Part shown: in pieces, positions 6,001 to 12,000 of the stretch
Layout of the letters: every line of letters begins with the position of its first letter
Numbering within the stretch: the first letter of the stretch is position 1
IMG/VR virus record: IMGVR_UViG_2778261638_000003
Coordinates: 1-41,846 of that record
Strand: one strand, 5' to 3'
Source of the DNA: a virus
Taxonomy: Duplodnaviria > Heunggongvirae > Uroviricota > Caudoviricetes
DNA: 41,846 nucleotides
Made by a program: the position numbers

Positions 6001-9000
6001 AGGAAAATTAGTGGCAACAGCTTTAAAATAGCTGCTCAGTTTTTTACCTGATTTAACGATCAGGTAGTCCAGAGTGGCGCAGGTCGATTCAAAATCGTCG
6101 CTTGCCCACAGGACGACGTCAGGTTCACCGGATGATTTTTTCGCTTTCCGTAACAGGAAGAGTGGTTTCGCGCTCATTGTTTTTTAACCTCAACTCAGAT
6201 TAAAATTCGTTTTGTTCAGTGAATGATCTTGCCGGATACACACTGTTCATAGCCTGCGCCATACGCAGGCTATTTCTTTCAGATTTCACCTTTTAATTTC
6301 ATTGCAATCAGCGTTGCCAGAAATGCGGCTTTTTTTTCTGCGGGCAGATTCTTACCAATGTGCACCAGACTCATTTTTTTGACACCTTCGTTAAGTGTTT
6401 TAACGTTGCCTGATGGACCATCGATATCAACCACAGTGAATGGGGTTTCTTTATTTTGTGTTTTAATCACGTGGCCAATGCGTTTTCCTTCCAGATAAAC
6501 CTCGTGAACAATGTTATCAGTAGTAACAACAGTGGATTCATAATTGGCAATCATGTTTTTCTCCTTAATTAAGGTTGAGCGAATCCCTGCCATTGTTGGC
6601 ATAAATTCAGTTTCGAGTAGTCAGTTAATTAAAGTTCGTGTGCCATCTGGTGTTTTTCGGCGCAACTTTCACTACAATATTTTTTCATTTCCGTCGTTGG
6701 GATAACTCCACGCATGAAATGAAGTGGTATTTTAATACTTTTGCTTTCTTGAATTTCTTTATTGCAAAGGTGGTAAGCACATTTGATTTTCTTAGCCATC
6801 ACCATGATTCCGCTTTTACAGGTAAACCATCACGACCGAGGAAGACTTTAATCATGCAGTCAGAAATGCATGTTTTTGTAGTCAGGCTACGAATATAAAG
6901 TTTTCGCTTTTTAATATTGTTTGCCGAGGCGATATATGTCCGACCTTCATGAAGAACATAATCGCCAGGGGTTACACACTGACGTGGTATTTCATCAGTT
7001 CCGAAGTGATGAGCAATCATAATCATCTCCATTTTTTCAAATGAACTTTGTTGATGCGGTGCCTGGTGCCTCCAGGTGATGTTAACCAGTTAACAATTAA
7101 CACCGGATACAAATACCCCCCAAACTAATATAGAGTTTTTTAACTGTTCCGCGTGCGCTTAGCCGCATTCACCGCATCACAAAATTCACTTTAAAAAGGG
7201 CGGACATCAGTCGAACTTCAAGAAAAAACCGATGCCGCCAAAGACTACACACAGCAATGTCGTTATTCACAACCGGAGGCGCACTCCCACCATTTATATT
7301 TAACAGACAAGACCGACTCTTTATTGATACCGGAAATGCGCCTTCGTGTTGTGCCCGGTTTTATTTCACCACCTCCGGGCTTCGGTGGTCTCGGCTATAC
7401 CCCTACAGCGAGAGCTTGTGTTAACATTTCAATACCCTTACAGTCGAGAGTTATTGAAATGTTGGATGTATTTACTCCATTGTTGAAACTTTTTGCTAAC
7501 GAGCCACTCGAAAGACTTATGTACACGATTATCATTTTTGGCCTCACTCTCTGGCTGATACCGAAAGAGTTTGCTGTCGTATTTAATGCTTATACTGAAA
7601 TACCCTGGCTCTTTCAGATTATAGTTTTTGCCTTTTCTTTCGTGGTTGCCATTTCCGTCTCAAGATTGCGAGCACATATTCAAAAACATTATTCATTGCT
7701 ACCAGAGCAACGAGTATTGCTTCGTTTATCTGAGAAAGAAATCGCTGTATTTAAAGATTTCCTTAAAACAGGAAATCTTATTATCACTTCTCCTTGCCGT
7801 AACCCGGTTATGAAAAAATTAGAACGGAAGGGCATCATTCAACATCAGAGTGATGGCGCAAACTGTTCTTATTATCTCGTCACCGAAAAATACTCCCACT
7901 TTATGAAGTTATTCTGGAACAGTAGGAGCAGACGTTTTAATCGTTAGCTTACTGTGTACTTCTCCAACCAGCGACGCGCGCCAACTTCGGTTTTAAACGT
8001 TTTGCTTTTGGTATACGTCATGGCGGTGAACGTTCCATCCTGGTTGGGGAACACGCCACACACCAGGGATTCGTTGTTGCTAAGATCGATAGTATCCATG
8101 TTGACCTCATTTTCCCTTAACGCTGGGGGAATTGGCTTCATAGTTGCTCCGTATCGTGGAGCCTACGACCTGCTTTTAACCACATCAGGTGAGGTGATAT
8201 CCTTACAAATGGTAATTTGCTGTAAGGATATTAATTATGGATATTAAATTTCGCTGTCCTCATTGCCGATCTCGCTACATTGAGATCGATGAGCACTCTG
8301 GCTCTGACAATGATCGTTTTATCTGCGGTGATTGTTTTGCGGAAATCAAAGATTCTGATTTCAGTGAACACTTTAATAAAACAATCAATAAAATCATCCG
8401 GACAGTTAAAAACCGCAGGAACAAGTAGTTTGTATAACTTCTCAATCTGATGTCTCAGGGGGCTGGTATCTATTTTTAACACCAGTCCCTGCTTTTCATC
8501 TGCGATCATCTTCGTATCCCCTTAACGCCGGGTGGCGGAACTGTTTGCTGAGAACACCGTGCGGTGTTTTGGTGTGGTTAATTTAGAATAACCTAACAAG
8601 ACAGGCAAGCACTTTTTGTTAGATCAACCTAACAAAAAGTGCGTTGGGATATAACAGACTGAAAAGAAAGCTATTTTATAGATTTGTTTTTACGAGCTTT
8701 GAGCATTTCTTCGAAAAGTCTATTGAAATTCTCAACTCTAGCGCGCATTTCAGACAGCAATGCTTCCTGCTCGGAGGATGGTAGAGCATCGAATAATTCA
8801 ATCAATTCTTTGTGGCTGGGAGTTAGCTCGTTTTCCACATGAAGCTCTTGTGCTGGCAATGGTGTTTTGTCTTCGTCACCAAACATTAGCCACGTAGGTG
8901 AGCACTTCAGAGCATCCGCTAAAGCAAACAGTCGCTTCCCTACAGGTTGGGTTTCATCTCTTTCCCATTGAGAAATGGTGACGTGAGCAACCCCAGCGAG

Positions 9001-12000
9001 ACGTGCGACTTCTCGTTGTGTCAGGCGTAATTCTTTTCGTCTTGCCAGAGCTCGCTGGCCTAGTGTTTTTGTATCCATAGTTAGGTAATTCTAATTTTTC
9101 TTGACTTAGGTATCCCGCGCACATTAGTGTTAGGAATATCTAACAAAGGGGGCTTTGATGTTTAAAGTTGATGCAATTATTTTTTTTGGTAGCAAGACAA
9201 AGCTTGCCAGTGCCGCAGGAGTAAGGCTGGCAAGTATTGCTGCATGGGGGGAGCTGGTCCCAGAAGGTCGCGCGATGCGTCTGCAAGAGGCATCTGGCGG
9301 AGAGCTTCAGTACGATCCCAAGGTTTATGACGAATATCGTAAGGCAAAGCGGGCGGGTAAGGGTATTCATGAAAATCAGGCATGAGCACATTGAATCAGT
9401 GTTGTTAGCTCTGGCTGCCGAAAAAGGTCAGGCGTGGGTTGCCAACGCAATTACTGAAGAATATTTGCGCCAGGGGGAGAGTGAATTAGCCCTGGCGCCA
9501 GGCAAGGACTGGAACAATCAGCAAAACATCTATCACCGCTGGTTAAAAGGTGAAACAAAGGCGCAAAGGGAAAAAATCCAGAAGCTGATTCCAGCAATCC
9601 TGGCAATTCTTCCGCGCGAACTGCGACATCGCCTCAGCGTTTTTGACACCCTGGAACGTCGCGCATTACTGGCGGCTCAGGAAGCGCTGAATACGGCAAT
9701 TGATGCGCATGATGATGCAGTCCAGGCCGTTTACCGGAAAGCGCATTTCAGCCGCGGTGGGTCTTCCGACGATTCTGTCATTGTTCATTAAGCAAAAGTT
9801 TTCATGCTGTTTGTGCTTATTCTAAGTCACCGGGCAGCATCATACGGGGCAATTATGGCCGCATTACCATACATGCAACTGTACATAGCTGATTACCTGG
9901 CTGACACCATGCATTTGTCAGCAGAGGAGCACGGTGCGTATTTGTTGCTGATGTTCAATTACTGGCAAACAGGAAAGCCAATACCCAAAAACAGGCTGGC
10001 AAAAATTGCCCGTCTGACTAACGAGCGATGGGCTGATGTTGAACCATCTTTGCGGGAGTTTTTTTGCGATAACGGCGACGAATGGGTGCATCTTCGGATT
10101 GAGCGCGACCTTAAAAATATCGTTACAGCGCCAAGAGGGAAGAAATTACCAGAGGGAGAAAATTTATCTGAATACAGGGGATACGTTTATTTCGTGACCA
10201 GCACGGAAATGGATACTGTGAAGATCGGATATTCAAAAAATCCCTGGGCAAGGCTTGGAGAACTACGACGTAGCTACGGTAGTAATCTTAGCGTAGTAGC
10301 TACGATAAAAACCGTAGAAAAATCGGAATCATCAATTCATGCATTGCTATCTGATTATCGAGTTAATGGTGAATGGTTTGTTAAGAGCGAGTGTATTAAA
10401 TCGTTAATAACACAAATCGTAGAAGGGAAAATAACTACCGTAGAAGCTACGAACAACTACGTTAGCAACTACGAAGTAGTTACTACAGTAGTTACTACGA
10501 CAACTACAAATACAGATACAGATCTAAAAGAATTAAACCCCACACATAACGCGCGCGTGCGCGAGAGAGCTCCGACCAGTGAGTCGAACGGTACGCCATC
10601 GCAGACAACGGAGCCCGAATATCTGGACGGCATGAGCGAACCCATCGGGAAATTTCCGATGACCGATGGCTGGCATCCGTCGCCGGATTTTCGACGACGG
10701 GCTGCTCTGTGGGGAGTGGCTCTGCCTGAGCCGGAATTTACACCAGCTGAATTTGCAGCCTTCCGGGACTACTGGGCAGCGGAGGGGAAAGTGTTCACGC
10801 AGATTCAGTGGGAGCAGAAATTCGCCCGTCACGTAAATCACGTCAGGGCGCAGGTTAAACCAGTCAGCAAGGGGGTAAACCATGCAGCAGCACCAGGTGG
10901 CACCGCATCACGAGCAGTTCAGGAAATTCGGGCAGCACGTGAGCAGTGGGAACGTGAAAACGGATTTATCAGCGACGGAAACGGCCTGGAAGCTGTGGGA
11001 ACTCATGGGGGAGGTTTATTCGAACCGCTGGACCCAGAAGAACGGGGCCGCACCTTCGAAGCTCTGGATTGCACAGATTGGCGCGATGACTGAGCAGCAA
11101 ATCCGGCAGGTCTGCCGCCAGTGCATGGACCGCTGCCGGGCGGGTGAAACATGGCCTCCGGACCTGGCTGAGTTTGTGGCGCTGATTTCGGAAAGCGGAG
11201 CCAATCCATTCGGTCTGACGGTGGATGCCGTGATGGAGGAATACCGCCGCTGGCGCAATGAGTCCTGGCGATACGACGGAAGCGATAAATACCCGTGGTC
11301 TCAGCCTGTGCTGTATCACATTTGCCTCGAGATGCGTTCAAAGGGGATTGAGCGCCAGATGACCGAAGGGGAGTTAAAACGGCTTGCAGAATGGCAACTG
11401 ACGAAATGGGCAAAGCATGTTGGTAATGGCCTGAGCATTCCGCCAGTCCGGCGACAACTGGCGGCACCCAAACGCCCGTCGGGACCAACGCCAATTGAGT
11501 TGCTGAAACAGGAATATGAACGCCGGAAAGCGGCTGGTTTTGTTTGAGTTGAGAAGTAATTTTTACCGGGAGGAAATTTTAATGGAGACCGTTTTTGACG
11601 CACTGAAAGCAATGGGAAAAGCCTCTTCCCAGGAAGTGGCTGCACGTCTGGGAATGACCCGGGATGAGGCGATTAACGAGCTGTGGAAACTGAAGCGTCG
11701 CGGGGAAGCTGACAACAAGGGCCCGATGTGGTGGTTGACTCAAACCGACGAAAACGCATCTGTGGCACAGGCTTCTAAAGTGACAGCGCAAATGCTGATC
11801 GAGGCGATTGAACAGCATGGCCCTAAAGCGGCTGATGAACTTGCACTGATATTCAGAATTACTTCCCGCAGGGTGAACTCATCGCTGGCTATGGCCATCA
11901 GCAAAGGTCGTCTGATTCGCGTAAATCAGAACGGTAAATTTCGTTACTGCCTGCCGGACGGTAATTTACCAGCAGAGCCGAAAGTTGTATCGGTAGCGAA

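What the first reader, a model, noticed from the sequence alone, without database searches (positions are those of the whole stretch)
8582..9146. Repressor gene flanked by two operator clusters sharing a TGTTAG-N6-CTAACA palindrome
The left cluster (8582-8638, including a perfect 10-bp inverted repeat) and the right cluster in the repressor/cro intergenic region (9081-9146) share the same half-site, consistent with OL/OR-type control by the small XRE repressor. That repressor lacks a LexA-like cleavage domain, so induction may depend on an antirepressor or other route rather than RecA-mediated autocleavage.
Basis: seen in the sequence. Interest (0 to 1): 0.5.

Follow-up and report, generated by a model that had tools for sequence, protein, structure and literature searches.

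The report
DicA-type prophage repressor and operators
The palindromes are real repressor-binding sites, but they belong to the already described DicA/DicC/Rem immunity switch of E. coli lambdoid prophages, here controlling a toxin-carrying Rac-site prophage, so the finding is correct and ordinary.

Summary
Perfect TGTTAG-N6-CTAACA palindromes lie at 8617-8634 and 9128-9145 (none expected by chance). Weaker copies lie at 8581-8598 and 9079-9096. The core TTAG-N6-CTAA occurs four times in 41.8 kb, and all four are in these two clusters.

The 135-aa repressor (8671-9078, minus strand) is a DicA-family protein. It scores 220 bits against an NCBIfam cut-off of 101 and is 57% identical to K-12 Qin DicA. 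The divergent gene is a DicC/Cro homologue. The palindrome has the same half-sites as the published DicA operator Oc of Qin, TTGTTAGTCATAACTAACAA.

Seven homologous loci from four genera keep all four sites at the same positions. Their cores are invariant and their spacers vary. Subfamilies with a different helix 2 have different half-sites.

The left cluster brackets the -35 and -10 of the leftward early promoter (OL-like). The right cluster covers the cro and repressor promoters (OR-like).

The repressor has no S24 cleavage domain. A homologue of Rem, the known DicA antirepressor, lies at 16303-16563, and I found no LexA box.

This is a new member of a known kind and of low interest. The prophage carries LT-II and pertussis-like toxin genes, so the switch probably gates toxin expression.

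The parts
8671..9078 (-). Repressor gene, 135 aa, DicA family. It has an N-terminal P22 C2-like HTH and a short helical C-terminal domain, and no S24 cleavage domain. There is no Shine-Dalgarno sequence before the ATG.
   Evidence: NCBIfam NF007257 'transcriptional repressor DicA': 220.2 bits against a cut-off of 101, covering 1-134 of 135. 57% identical to K-12 DicA. Matches the P22 C2 N-terminal domain, 1adr, at E 1.4e-18 over residues 1-72. Pfam gives HTH families only.
9158..9385 (+). Cro-like gene, a DicC homologue, first gene of the rightward early operon.
   Evidence: 75% identical to K-12 DicC. NCBIfam NF007282 DicC: 153.9 bits against a cut-off of 130. Pfam P22_Cro, 3.1e-12.
9375..9791 (+). 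YdaT / CII-like regulator, second gene of the rightward operon (context only).
   Evidence: Pfam YdaT_toxin, 1.2e-11. phrog_163 'CII-like transcriptional activator', 5.2e-35.
9128..9145 (.). Right operator 1, equivalent to Qin Oc and OR1-like. A perfect palindrome that overlaps the -10 and the predicted +1 of the cro promoter.
   Evidence: Exact match. Sits 50 bp from the repressor ATG, against 51 bp for Oc in Qin. DicA binding to Oc is shown genetically in Qin (PMC3441716).
9104..9121 (.). Possible middle operator (Om-like), ACTTAGGTATCCCGCGCA. Only one recognisable half-site, which overlaps the cro -35. Low confidence.
   Evidence: Read from the sequence. Start-to-start spacing of 25 and 24 bp to the flanking sites. 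The CCTTAG subfamily has a good site at this position, for example PPompW tcGTAGAGAAACCTAAgt. In Qin, DicA did not bind Om alone.
9079..9096 (.). Right operator 3, equivalent to Qin Oa and OR3-like. Abuts the repressor start codon and contains the predicted -10 of the repressor promoter.
   Evidence: Core TTAG-N6-CTAA is exact. Same position, 1 bp from the ATG, in all 7 group-A loci.
9101..9130 (+). Predicted cro (PR-like) promoter: -35 TTGACT at 9101-9106, 18-nt spacer, -10 TAGTGT at 9125-9130.
   Evidence: Inferred by alignment with the Qin dicC promoter, TTGACT-17-TATCTT, whose +1 was mapped by 5' RACE (PMC3441716; sequence). The consensus scan did not report it.
9088..9093 (-). Predicted -10 (TAGAAT on the minus strand) of the repressor (PRM-like) promoter, 9 nt before the ATG. 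This implies a leaderless or nearly leaderless repressor mRNA.
   Evidence: Read from the sequence. TAGAAT or TAGCAT lies at the same distance from the ATG in 8 of the 10 intact loci and in L025-L026, with a 1-nt offset in L009, L010 and L026; HannyBb and phiES15 differ. Inference only. No dicA promoter has been mapped in Qin.
8617..8634 (.). Left operator, distal. A perfect palindrome lying 8 bp upstream of the -35 of the leftward promoter.
   Evidence: Exact match. An equivalent site lies 36-44 bp after the stop codon in all 7 group-A loci.
8609..8642 (.). Extended perfect inverted repeat (14-nt arms, 6-nt loop) that contains the distal left operator. It may also act as a weak terminator hairpin for the repressor transcript.
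   Evidence: I4. The minus-strand RNA hairpin has a centroid energy of -25 kcal/mol and z = -5.1. It has no U tract and was not called a terminator.
8581..8598 (.). Left operator, proximal. One consensus half (TGTTAG on the minus strand) and one weak half (CTAAAT) that overlaps the -10 of the leftward promoter.
   Evidence: 2 mismatches. Core exact. Conserved position in relatives.
8580..8608 (-). Predicted leftward early (PL / dicBp-like) promoter: -35 TTGCCT (complement of 8603-8608), 17-nt spacer, -10 TAAATT (complement of 8580-8585).
   Evidence: Inferred by alignment with Qin, TTGACC-17-TAATCT, downstream of dicA. It matches 8 of 12 consensus positions, which is below the scan threshold.
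8517..8571 (-). Conserved leader of the leftward transcript, CACCGCACGGTGTTCTCAGCAAACAGTTCCGCCACCCGGCGTTAAGGGGA. Function unknown.
   Evidence: Nearly identical in Qin, E. albertii, PPompW and HannyBb, and recognisable in the Klebsiella and Cronobacter phages. No Rfam match. Weak consensus structure.
8231..8509 (-). First ORF of the leftward operon, 92 aa, with no family match.
   Evidence: Annotated as a hypothetical protein in the identical region of strain MB07081.
16303..16563 (+). Rem homologue, 86 aa, the candidate antirepressor of the DicA-type repressor. It lies after the hok/sok terminator and has its own predicted promoter.
   Evidence: 59% identical to K-12 Rem, E 4e-33. The 100% identical copy in GenBank MN652886 is annotated 'rem: prophage antirepressor'. 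Rem derepresses dicBp 165-fold in K-12 (PMC10448788).

Best explanation
This is the immunity region of a lambdoid prophage integrated at the Rac site next to ttcA. It uses the DicA/DicC/Rem type of switch.

Repression. The 135-aa DicA-family repressor binds as a dimer to 18-bp operators with the consensus TGTTAG-N6-CTAACA and an invariant core TTAG-N6-CTAA.

Right side. Binding to the perfect site 9128-9145 blocks the -10 and +1 of the cro/dicC promoter. By analogy with Qin DicA, it also stimulates the repressor's own weak promoter. The imperfect site 9079-9096 covers that promoter's -10 and start. It would allow shut-off by the Cro-like DicC protein, or by excess repressor.

Left side. The perfect site 8617-8634 and the imperfect site 8581-8598 bracket the -35 and overlap the -10 of the leftward early promoter. 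That promoter drives the 92-aa ORF, ydaF, kilR, recET and xis-int.

Induction. The repressor has no RecA-dependent self-cleavage domain. The likely route is the small Rem-type antirepressor encoded at 16303-16563, together with DicC-dependent bistable switching.

Shown here: the sites, their statistics, their positional conservation, their co-variation with the repressor, and family membership. Shown only in the Qin homologue: DicA binding to Oc, DicC binding on both sides of dicA, and Rem derepression. Inferred: the promoter positions, the leaderless repressor mRNA, dimer binding, and the action of Rem on this allele.
For: Sites and statistics.
- The exact palindrome occurs twice against 0.00 expected.
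- The core occurs four times, only in the two clusters, against 0.49 expected.

Family membership.
- The repressor passes the curated DicA model, and the partner passes the DicC model.
- They are 57% and 75% identical to the K-12 proteins.
- The N-terminal domain is homologous to the P22 C2 DNA-binding domain.

Match to the published operator.
- Qin Oc, TTGTTAGTCATAACTAACAA, has the same half-sites. A CTAACA-to-CTCACA change abolishes DicA binding in vivo. Oc overlaps the dicC -10. DicA bound at Oc activates dicA (PMC3441716).
- Qin has the same four sites at the same distances.
- DicC ChIP-seq finds sites on either side of dicA with the motif TT(A/C/T)G...C(G/A/T)AA (PMC11430063).

Conservation and co-variation.
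- In 7 loci (28 sites, 18 of them unique) the core carries 1.87-2.0 bits per position and the spacer 0.4-0.8 bits.
- Repressors with SQA in place of TQR at helix 2 have CCTTAG/CTAAGG operators at the same positions. HannyBb has TTGAG/CTCAA.

Antirepressor.
- A Rem homologue is present.
- 15 of the 16 phage records with a Rem homologue also have a DicA-family repressor hit.
- A neighbouring prophage in strain MB07081 has a 214-aa LexA-family repressor and no Rem homologue at the equivalent position.
- Rem relieves DicA repression in K-12 (PMC10448788).
Against: - No binding experiment exists for this allele.
- In Qin, DicA did not bind Oa or Om when each was tested alone. The imperfect sites may therefore need cooperativity, or may be mainly DicC sites.
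- The predicted promoters fall below the consensus-scan threshold. No dicA promoter has been mapped in Qin.
- The Reg-Seq authors list the location of the DicA site at dicB as unknown (PMC7567609).
- The signal that turns on rem is unknown in Qin. I found no LexA box here, so the trigger for induction remains open.
- In K-12, spontaneous, urea-induced and heat-induced derepression of dicBp were independent of Rem.
Confidence: 0.85

Rival explanations
1. The left palindrome (8609-8642) is mainly an intrinsic terminator that ends the repressor transcript, like t-imm of lambda, and is not an operator.
For: It starts 29 nt after the stop codon. On the minus-strand RNA it forms a 14-bp hairpin with a centroid energy of -25 kcal/mol and z = -5.1, and 0 of 200 shuffles fold as well. 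The tail UUGCCUGUCUUGUU is moderately U-rich.
Against: - There is no U tract directly after the stem, and the terminator scan did not call it.
- In relatives the half-sites TGTTAG/CTAACA are kept while the loop changes and the stem extension is shorter or absent.
- The Qin counterpart, TGTTAGCTATAGCATACA, cannot form a good hairpin.
- The same half-sites recur in a second site 36 bp away and in the right cluster.
- A secondary terminator role in this allele is not excluded.
Confidence: 0.15
2. Induction follows the Gifsy model: a LexA-controlled antirepressor links the non-cleavable repressor to the SOS response.
For: DicA was grouped with the Gifsy repressors GfoR and GtgR, whose antirepressors are under LexA control (PMC3121763). 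A phage with a DicA-family repressor, phiES15, was obtained by UV induction according to its host field.
Against: - There is no CTGT-N8-ACAG in the window.
- One-mismatch matches are at chance level (15 found, 11.3 expected) and none lies near rem.
- The region upstream of rem, aligned with Qin, shows a conserved -10 and leader but no LexA box.
- A LexA-controlled antirepressor acting in trans from another prophage cannot be excluded.
Confidence: 0.15
3. The palindromes are bound mainly by the Cro-like DicC homologue or by YdaT, and the 135-aa repressor acts elsewhere.
For: DicC ChIP-seq peaks flank dicA, and the DicC motif has the same TTAG/CTAA core. DicA did not bind Oa or Om alone in Qin.
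Against: - DicA binding to Oc, which has the same half-sites as the two perfect sites here, is shown genetically.
- Operator half-sites co-vary with helix 2 of the repressor.
- In lambda-type switches the repressor and Cro share operators, so DicC binding adds to repressor binding and does not replace it.
Confidence: 0.05
4. The shared palindromes are a chance or compositional coincidence.
For: With 3 mismatches allowed, the full 12-base pattern is no more frequent than chance in the window.
Against: Exact matches: 2 found, 0.00 expected. Core matches: 4 found, 0.49 expected, all within the clusters. The positions are conserved across four genera.
Confidence: 0.01

Closest known systems
DicA / DicC / Rem immunity module of the cryptic Qin (Kim) prophage of E. 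coli K-12
   Same: - Both have a 135-aa repressor of the same family and a divergent DicC/Cro gene.
- The operator half-sites TGTTAG/CTAACA are identical.
- The four-site layout and spacing are the same: Oc 50-51 bp and Oa 1 bp from the ATG, and two sites 36-37 and 71-73 bp after the stop codon.
- The leftward leader is conserved.
- A DUF1391 gene lies in the leftward operon.
- rem follows hokD.
   Different: - The repressor is only 57% identical and Rem only 59%.
- The module sits in a Rac-site prophage that looks complete, not in a cryptic remnant.
- The leftward operon carries a 92-aa ORF, ydaF, kilR and recET, not ydfABC-dicF-dicB. No DicF RNA was found.
- The distal left operator is a perfect palindrome with 14-nt arms, where Qin has an imperfect site.
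- The middle region (Om) is unrelated in sequence.
P22 C2 repressor / Cro with tripartite OR and OL
   Same: The N-terminal DNA-binding domains are homologous (E 1.4e-18). Q21, V33 and Q37 of the helix-turn-helix are conserved. Both use 18-bp palindromic operators at divergent repressor and cro promoters, with a second cluster at the leftward promoter. That the P22 operators are 18 bp long is from my own knowledge.
   Different: There is no C-terminal S24 self-cleavage domain. The half-sites differ. Only two clear sites are seen per cluster.
Gifsy-1/-2/-3 repressors (GfoR, GtgR, GfhR) with antirepressors GfoA, GftA and GfhA (Lemire et al. 2011, PMC3121763)
   Same: Both have a short, non-cleavable repressor that is inactivated by a small antirepressor encoded outside the immunity region. 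The authors named DicA as a member of this group.
   Different: The Gifsy antirepressor operons carry a LexA box next to a dinI homologue. I found no LexA box and no such arrangement here. I did not measure similarity between Rem and GfoA.
RacR / YdaS / YdaT of the K-12 Rac prophage
   Same: The integration site (ttcA-intR) and most flanking genes are the same: xisR, ralR/RalA, recET, kilR, sieB and ydaF. A YdaT-family CII-like gene follows the cro gene.
   Different: The repressor and cro genes have been replaced by DicA/DicC-type alleles. The K-12 genome matches the window at ydaT but not over the repressor, the cro gene or the operators.
Lambda CI / Cro with OL and OR
   Same: The logic is the same: a repressor gene flanked by two operator clusters, divergent PRM/PR-like promoters, a probably leaderless repressor mRNA, and a bistable switch with a Cro-like protein.
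   Different: The C-terminal domain is unrelated and there is no RecA-stimulated cleavage. OL-OR looping has not been tested.

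Membership tests
DicA-family transcriptional repressor (NCBIfam NF007257) | Full-length match above the curated cut-off | tested here: met
   220.2 bits against a cut-off of 101, covering residues 1-134 of the 135-position model. 57% identity to K-12 DicA over 132 aa.
DicA-family transcriptional repressor (NCBIfam NF007257) | About 135 aa, with a P22 C2-like N-terminal HTH and no S24 peptidase self-cleavage domain | tested here: met
   Pfam gives HTH_3, HTH_31 and similar families within residues 6-71, and no Peptidase_S24. The PDB match to the C2 N-terminal domain ends at residue 72. The C-terminal 63 aa align only with other DicA-family proteins.
DicA-family transcriptional repressor (NCBIfam NF007257) | Divergently transcribed DicC (P22_Cro-type) partner | tested here: met
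   NF007282 DicC: 153.9 bits against a cut-off of 130. 75% identity to DicC.
DicA-family transcriptional repressor (NCBIfam NF007257) | Operator of the Oc type (TGTTAG-N6-CTAACA) overlapping the dicC promoter | tested here: met
   9128-9145 is an exact match. It lies at the same distance from the repressor ATG as Qin Oc.
DicA-family transcriptional repressor (NCBIfam NF007257) | The repressor physically binds these operators | not testable with these tools
   Needs EMSA, footprinting or ChIP. Supported only by homology with Qin and by co-variation.
DicA-family transcriptional repressor (NCBIfam NF007257) | Controls a dicF-dicB cell-division-inhibitor operon | tested here: not met
   Rfam finds no DicF in the window. 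The leftward genes are a 92-aa ORF, a DUF1391 gene, kilR and recET. This feature belongs to the Qin locus and does not define the protein family.
Rem-type antirepressor control of DicA | A Rem homologue is encoded in the same prophage, outside the immunity region | tested here: met
   16303-16563, 59% identity to K-12 Rem, E 4e-33. It follows hokD as in Qin.
Rem-type antirepressor control of DicA | Rem relieves repression by this repressor | not testable with these tools
   Shown only for K-12 DicA and Rem (PMC10448788).
Gifsy-type SOS-linked antirepression | LexA box upstream of the antirepressor operon | tested here: not met
   No exact CTGT-N8-ACAG. One-mismatch matches are at chance level and none lies near rem. 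The alignment of the rem upstream region with Qin shows no LexA box.
Lambda / P22-type cleavable CI repressors | C-terminal LexA-like (S24) domain with an Ala-Gly cleavage site and a Ser/Lys dyad | tested here: not met
   No S24 hit. The protein ends 63 aa after the HTH domain. The only Ala-Gly dipeptide (residues 28-29) lies inside the HTH.
Lambda / P22-type bipartite immunity region (OL + OR) | Operator clusters at both the divergent repressor/cro promoters and the leftward early promoter | tested here: met
   Two sites on each side. They overlap the predicted -10 and -35 elements, which align with the Qin promoters. DicC ChIP-seq peaks lie on either side of dicA in Qin.

The most novel reading that the evidence does not exclude
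The repressor shares its operator half-sites and its DNA-reading residues (TQR in helix 2, HV.(I/V)SQWE in helix 3) with Qin DicA, although the two proteins are only 57% identical. Its C-terminal domain is conserved across all the specificity groups. The toxin-carrying Rac-site prophage and the widespread cryptic Qin prophage may therefore be homoimmune and cross-wired. Qin DicA could silence or exclude this LT-II/EplBA phage. Rem from either element could derepress both. A cryptic prophage would then influence enterotoxin expression and phage host range.
Probability: 0.3. Interest if true: 0.45.

Novelty: new member of a known kind. Interest (0 to 1): 0.2.

Why it matters
The window is a Rac-site lambdoid prophage that carries two toxin loci. 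Type II heat-labile enterotoxin genes lie at 21566-22703, after the lysis genes. A pertussis-like AB5 toxin locus lies at 18477-19789, directly downstream of the Q-like antiterminator. This is the prophage type that Jobling described for type II ETEC (cited in PMC5917428).

If late transcription drives these toxins as it does Stx, the DicA/DicC/Rem switch decides when toxin is made and when the phage spreads. This switch does not respond to DNA damage through repressor cleavage, and no LexA box is evident. Its inducing signals may therefore differ from those of Stx phages. That bears on which antibiotics or stresses raise toxin output.

As basic biology it adds little. The repressor family, the operator motif, the two-sided operator layout and the antirepressor are all already described for Qin.

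Tried and rejected
- LexA boxes. There is no exact CTGT-N8-ACAG. One-mismatch matches are at chance level and are not near rem. An SOS link is not supported from the sequence.
- KilA-N protein (14604-15377, minus strand) as the antirepressor. Rejected: it is a BstA abortive-infection homologue (phrog_6287, 4.8e-89).
- Terminator reading of the left palindrome. The hairpin is strong, but it has no U tract, the scan did not call it, and the stem extension is not conserved. I kept it only as a minor secondary role.
- Consensus promoter scan. It did not report the PR-, PRM- or PL-like promoters. Their positions rest on alignment with Qin.
- Rfam. Nothing matched in 8200-9400 even at E <= 1. The only matches in the whole window are RalA and sok.
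- Conserved leftward leader. RNAalifold gave only 4 pairs, at -4.5 kcal/mol, with almost no covariation. There is no second copy in the window. It does not resemble a paired nut or put site.
- Further operator copies elsewhere in the prophage. None with 2 or fewer mismatches. Three-mismatch matches are at chance level.
- Neighbouring prophage in MB07081 as a second DicA-type immunity region. It has a LexA-family repressor instead.
- Papers not held and therefore not read: Bejar 1986 (PMC311701), Cam 1988 (PMC338298) and Jobling 2016 (PMC4957749). The Nat Commun 2025 ChIP compendium does not mention DicA in its main text.
- Not done: structure prediction and the large protein-database searches. 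They would not have changed the verdict.

Full report
**1. What is in the sequence**

The region 8300-9700 holds a 135-aa ORF on the minus strand (8671-9078). It is flanked by two clusters of related palindromes.

- The exact pattern TGTTAG-N6-CTAACA occurs twice in the 41,846-base window, at 8617-8634 and 9128-9145. None is expected in 100 dinucleotide-preserving shuffles.
- A 2-mismatch copy lies at 8581-8598, and a 3-mismatch copy at 9079-9096.
- Over the whole window, 3-mismatch matches are no commoner than chance (11 found, 15.1 expected). The weak sites therefore cannot stand on that count alone.
- The 8-base core TTAG-N6-CTAA occurs exactly four times, and all four are these sites. The expectation is 0.49, and 0 of 100 shuffles reach four.
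- The left perfect site sits inside a perfect inverted repeat with 14-nt arms (8609-8622 and 8629-8642).

**2. What the genes are**

- The ORF has only helix-turn-helix Pfam hits, within residues 6-71, and no Peptidase_S24.
- Its first 72 residues match the P22 C2 repressor DNA-binding domain (1adr, E 1.4e-18).
- Over its full length it passes NCBI's curated DicA model (220 bits, cut-off 101). It is 57% identical to K-12 DicA, which is also 135 aa.
- The divergent gene (9158-9385) passes the DicC model and is 75% identical to K-12 DicC.
- The next gene is a YdaT/CII-like regulator.

A 1.6-kb stretch spanning the immunity region (window 8200-9800) is 100% identical to a stretch of the E. coli MB07081 chromosome. 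In that strain the surrounding prophage lies next to ttcA and carries intR, xisR, ralR, recET, kilR, sieB and ydaF. It is therefore a Rac-site prophage whose immunity genes are of the DicA/DicC type, not the RacR/YdaS type. Over the repressor-to-YdaT stretch (window 8643-9400), and in the Rem protein, the window is also 100% identical to GenBank MN652886 ('Escherichia phage Rac', host E. coli 442/2). That record annotates these genes as 'dicA: prophage repressor' and 'rem: prophage antirepressor'.

**3. The palindrome is the known DicA operator**

- Yun et al. 2012 (PMC3441716) give the Qin operator Oc as TTGTTAGTCATAACTAACAA. Its half-sites are the same as those found here.
- In that study, clones of the dicA-dicC promoter region on high-copy plasmids survived only with point mutations in Oc.
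- Oc placed in front of a reporter was repressed in a dicA-dependent way.
- A single A-to-C change (CTAACA to CTCACA) abolished that repression.
- Oc overlaps the -10 of the dicC promoter, whose +1 was mapped by 5' RACE. DicA bound at Oc also activated dicA.

I read the Qin sequence directly. It has the same layout as the window:

- AGTTAGCTAATGCTAAAT abuts the dicA ATG (Oa).
- Oc lies 51 bp upstream of the ATG.
- Two further sites lie downstream of dicA, TGTTAGCTATAGCATACA and TGTTAGTCATGGCTAATC. They bracket a TTGACC-17-TAATCT promoter ahead of ydfA.

A 2024 preprint reports DicC ChIP-seq in K-12. [quoted passage not shown] That matches the two-cluster arrangement and the core found here.

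**4. Comparative test**

A scan of one genome per species recovered relatives in E. albertii, E. ruysiae, Buttiauxella, Citrobacter, Enterobacter, Pantoea and Erwinia.

- In the window, Qin and five other loci, all four sites are present at equivalent positions. Two lie 50-65 bp and 1-16 bp before the ATG as aligned, and two lie 36-44 bp and 71-79 bp after the stop codon.
- Over these 28 sites (18 unique), the core positions carry 1.87-2.0 bits each. The six spacer positions carry only 0.4-0.8 bits. This is the pattern expected for a protein-binding site and not for a conserved hairpin.
- The weak half of the promoter-proximal sites coincides with the predicted -10 hexamers, TAGAAT and TAAATT. 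That explains why those halves depart from the consensus.

The Enterobacter, Pantoea, Erwinia, PPompW and Klebsiella phage repressors have the same recognition helix (VAHVTISQWE). At the start of helix 2 they carry SQA(A/S) where the window has TQR(E/S). At the same positions they have CCTTAG-N6-CTAAGG operators. PPompW also has a clear middle site.

HannyBb has a different helix 3 and TTGAG/CTCAA sites. The operators therefore co-vary with the DNA-binding residues of the repressor. The C-terminal domain (LP.SEQ...RARV.NFN.LFEE.LKARK) stays conserved across all groups.

**5. How the two clusters map onto promoters (inferred)**

*Right side.*
- TTGACT (9101-9106), an 18-nt spacer and TAGTGT (9125-9130) align with the mapped Qin dicC promoter.
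- The perfect site 9128-9145 then covers the end of the -10 and the predicted +1.
- On the minus strand, TAGAAT (complement of 9088-9093) lies 9 nt before the repressor ATG, with no Shine-Dalgarno sequence. The same arrangement holds in most relatives, with a 1-nt shift in a few and with HannyBb and phiES15 as exceptions. This suggests a leaderless, PRM-like transcript.
- The site 9079-9096 covers that -10.

*Left side.*
- TTGCCT (complement of 8603-8608), a 17-nt spacer and TAAATT (complement of 8580-8585) align with Qin's TTGACC-17-TAATCT.
- The proximal site 8581-8598 spans the spacer and the -10.
- The perfect distal site ends 8 bp upstream of the -35.

None of these promoters passes the consensus scan. 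No dicA promoter has been mapped. These positions are therefore inferences from homology.

**6. Induction**

The repressor has no cleavage domain.

Ragunathan et al. 2023 (PMC10448788) showed that Rem, an 83-aa Qin protein, raises dicBp expression 165-fold. They also showed that DicA and DicC behave as a bistable switch, and that spontaneous, urea-induced and heat-induced derepression do not need Rem or RecA. Lemire et al. 2011 (PMC3121763) had already placed DicA among the short Gifsy-type repressors that are controlled by antirepressors.

The evidence in the window and in related records is as follows.

- The window encodes an 86-aa Rem homologue at 16303-16563 (59% identity, E 4e-33). It lies just after hok/sok, as in Qin.
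- In the phage collection, 15 of the 16 records with a Rem homologue also have a DicA-family repressor hit.
- In strain MB07081 a neighbouring prophage has the same module order but a 214-aa LexA-family repressor. At the equivalent position it has an unrelated protein.
- I found no LexA box. There is no exact match, only chance-level one-mismatch matches, and none in the rem upstream region. That region shares a -10 (AATAGAATC) and a conserved leader with Qin.

The antirepressor route is well supported by homology. Its trigger is unknown, and a Gifsy-style SOS link is not supported by the sequence.

**7. Rival readings**

- The left palindrome folds into a strong RNA hairpin on the repressor strand (centroid about -25 kcal/mol, z = -5.1), so it could add some termination. 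It has no U tract, and the stem extension is not conserved.
- Binding by DicC adds to repressor binding and does not replace it.
- Chance is excluded.

**8. Verdict**

The feature is the DicA/DicC/Rem immunity system. Its operator motif, its two-sided operator layout, its lack of a cleavage domain and its antirepressor are all already in the literature for Qin. The same allele is already annotated in GenBank.

It is a new member of a known kind. Points of modest interest:

- The switch sits in an apparently complete prophage that carries LT-II and pertussis-like toxin genes downstream of Q (Jobling 2016, cited in PMC5917428).
- It shares operator specificity with Qin DicA at only 57% identity, which raises the possibility of cross-immunity and cross-induction.
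- The comparative data place the DicA sites at the dicB-type promoter. The Reg-Seq authors list that location as unknown (PMC7567609).

Noticed in passing
window 8517-8571 (minus strand): A leader of about 55 nt lies between the leftward early promoter and its first gene: CACCGCACGGTGTTCTCAGCAAACAGTTCCGCCACCCGGCGTTAAGGGGA. It is nearly identical in Qin, E. albertii, PPompW and HannyBb, and recognisable in Klebsiella, Cronobacter, Citrobacter and Pantoea loci. This holds even though the operators, the repressors and the downstream gene all differ. It has no Rfam match, only a weak consensus fold, and a single copy in the window. Its function is unknown. It could be a processing, antitermination or translational element.
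   Followed up: partly
window 21566-22703 and 18477-19789: The prophage carries type II heat-labile enterotoxin genes: Enterotoxin_a at 2.9e-117 and LT-IIB at 1.2e-41. It also carries a pertussis-toxin-like AB5 locus (Pertussis_S1 at 1.5e-16, annotated eplA in strain MB07081). The pertussis-like locus lies just after the Q-like antiterminator at 17516-18052, and the LT-II genes lie after the lysis genes. This matches the type II ETEC Rac-like toxin prophage described by Jobling (cited).
   Followed up: partly
window 14604-15377 (minus strand): A KilA-N protein, transcribed against the early-right operon, is a BstA abortive-infection homologue (phrog_6287, 4.8e-89; Pfam KilA-N, 4.3e-27). It is a prophage defence gene, not the antirepressor.
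   Followed up: partly
window 16140-16302: The region upstream of the rem homologue shares two features with Qin rem: a -10-like AATAGAATC and a GC-rich leader, TAGCGCGCAGGGA.AAGAGGGATGG.CCCTT.AGGGGA, that could form alternative hairpins. It lies downstream of the hok terminator. The signal that controls rem is unknown in the literature.
   Followed up: partly
window 1557-1735 and 15732-15907: Two type I toxin-antitoxin RNA genes are present. RalA sRNA (197 bits) lies opposite ralR, and sok (105.7 bits) lies next to hokD at 15902-16057.
   Followed up: no
L025-L028 and L008-L010 (relatives), compared with window 8671-9078: The DicA family splits into operator-specificity groups that track helix 2 and helix 3 residues: TQR with TGTTAG, SQA with CCTTAG, and SQNG/VSGSSISLWE with TTGAG. 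Overall identity does not predict the group. PPompW is 65% identical to the window repressor but has different operators, while Qin DicA is 57% identical and has the same operators. The C-terminal domain is conserved across all groups.
   Followed up: partly
L013-L024 (Campylobacter concisus): The C-terminal motif of the repressor (residues 82-115, ELIELFDALPSSEQEALLSEMRARVENF...) matches Campylobacter concisus loci at 53-62% identity over 34 aa. One locus (L013) aligns over residues 19-115 at 31%. This suggests that the C-terminal module occurs in distant taxa.
   Followed up: no
L030 10744-11388 (E. coli MB07081, neighbouring prophage): In strain MB07081 a second lambdoid prophage lies directly next to the Rac-site prophage. 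It has the same Cro/YdaT layout and a dicB gene, but a 214-aa LexA-family (cleavable) repressor and no Rem homologue. The window itself continues into phage structural genes at this point, so it comes from a related genome and not an identical one.
   Followed up: partly
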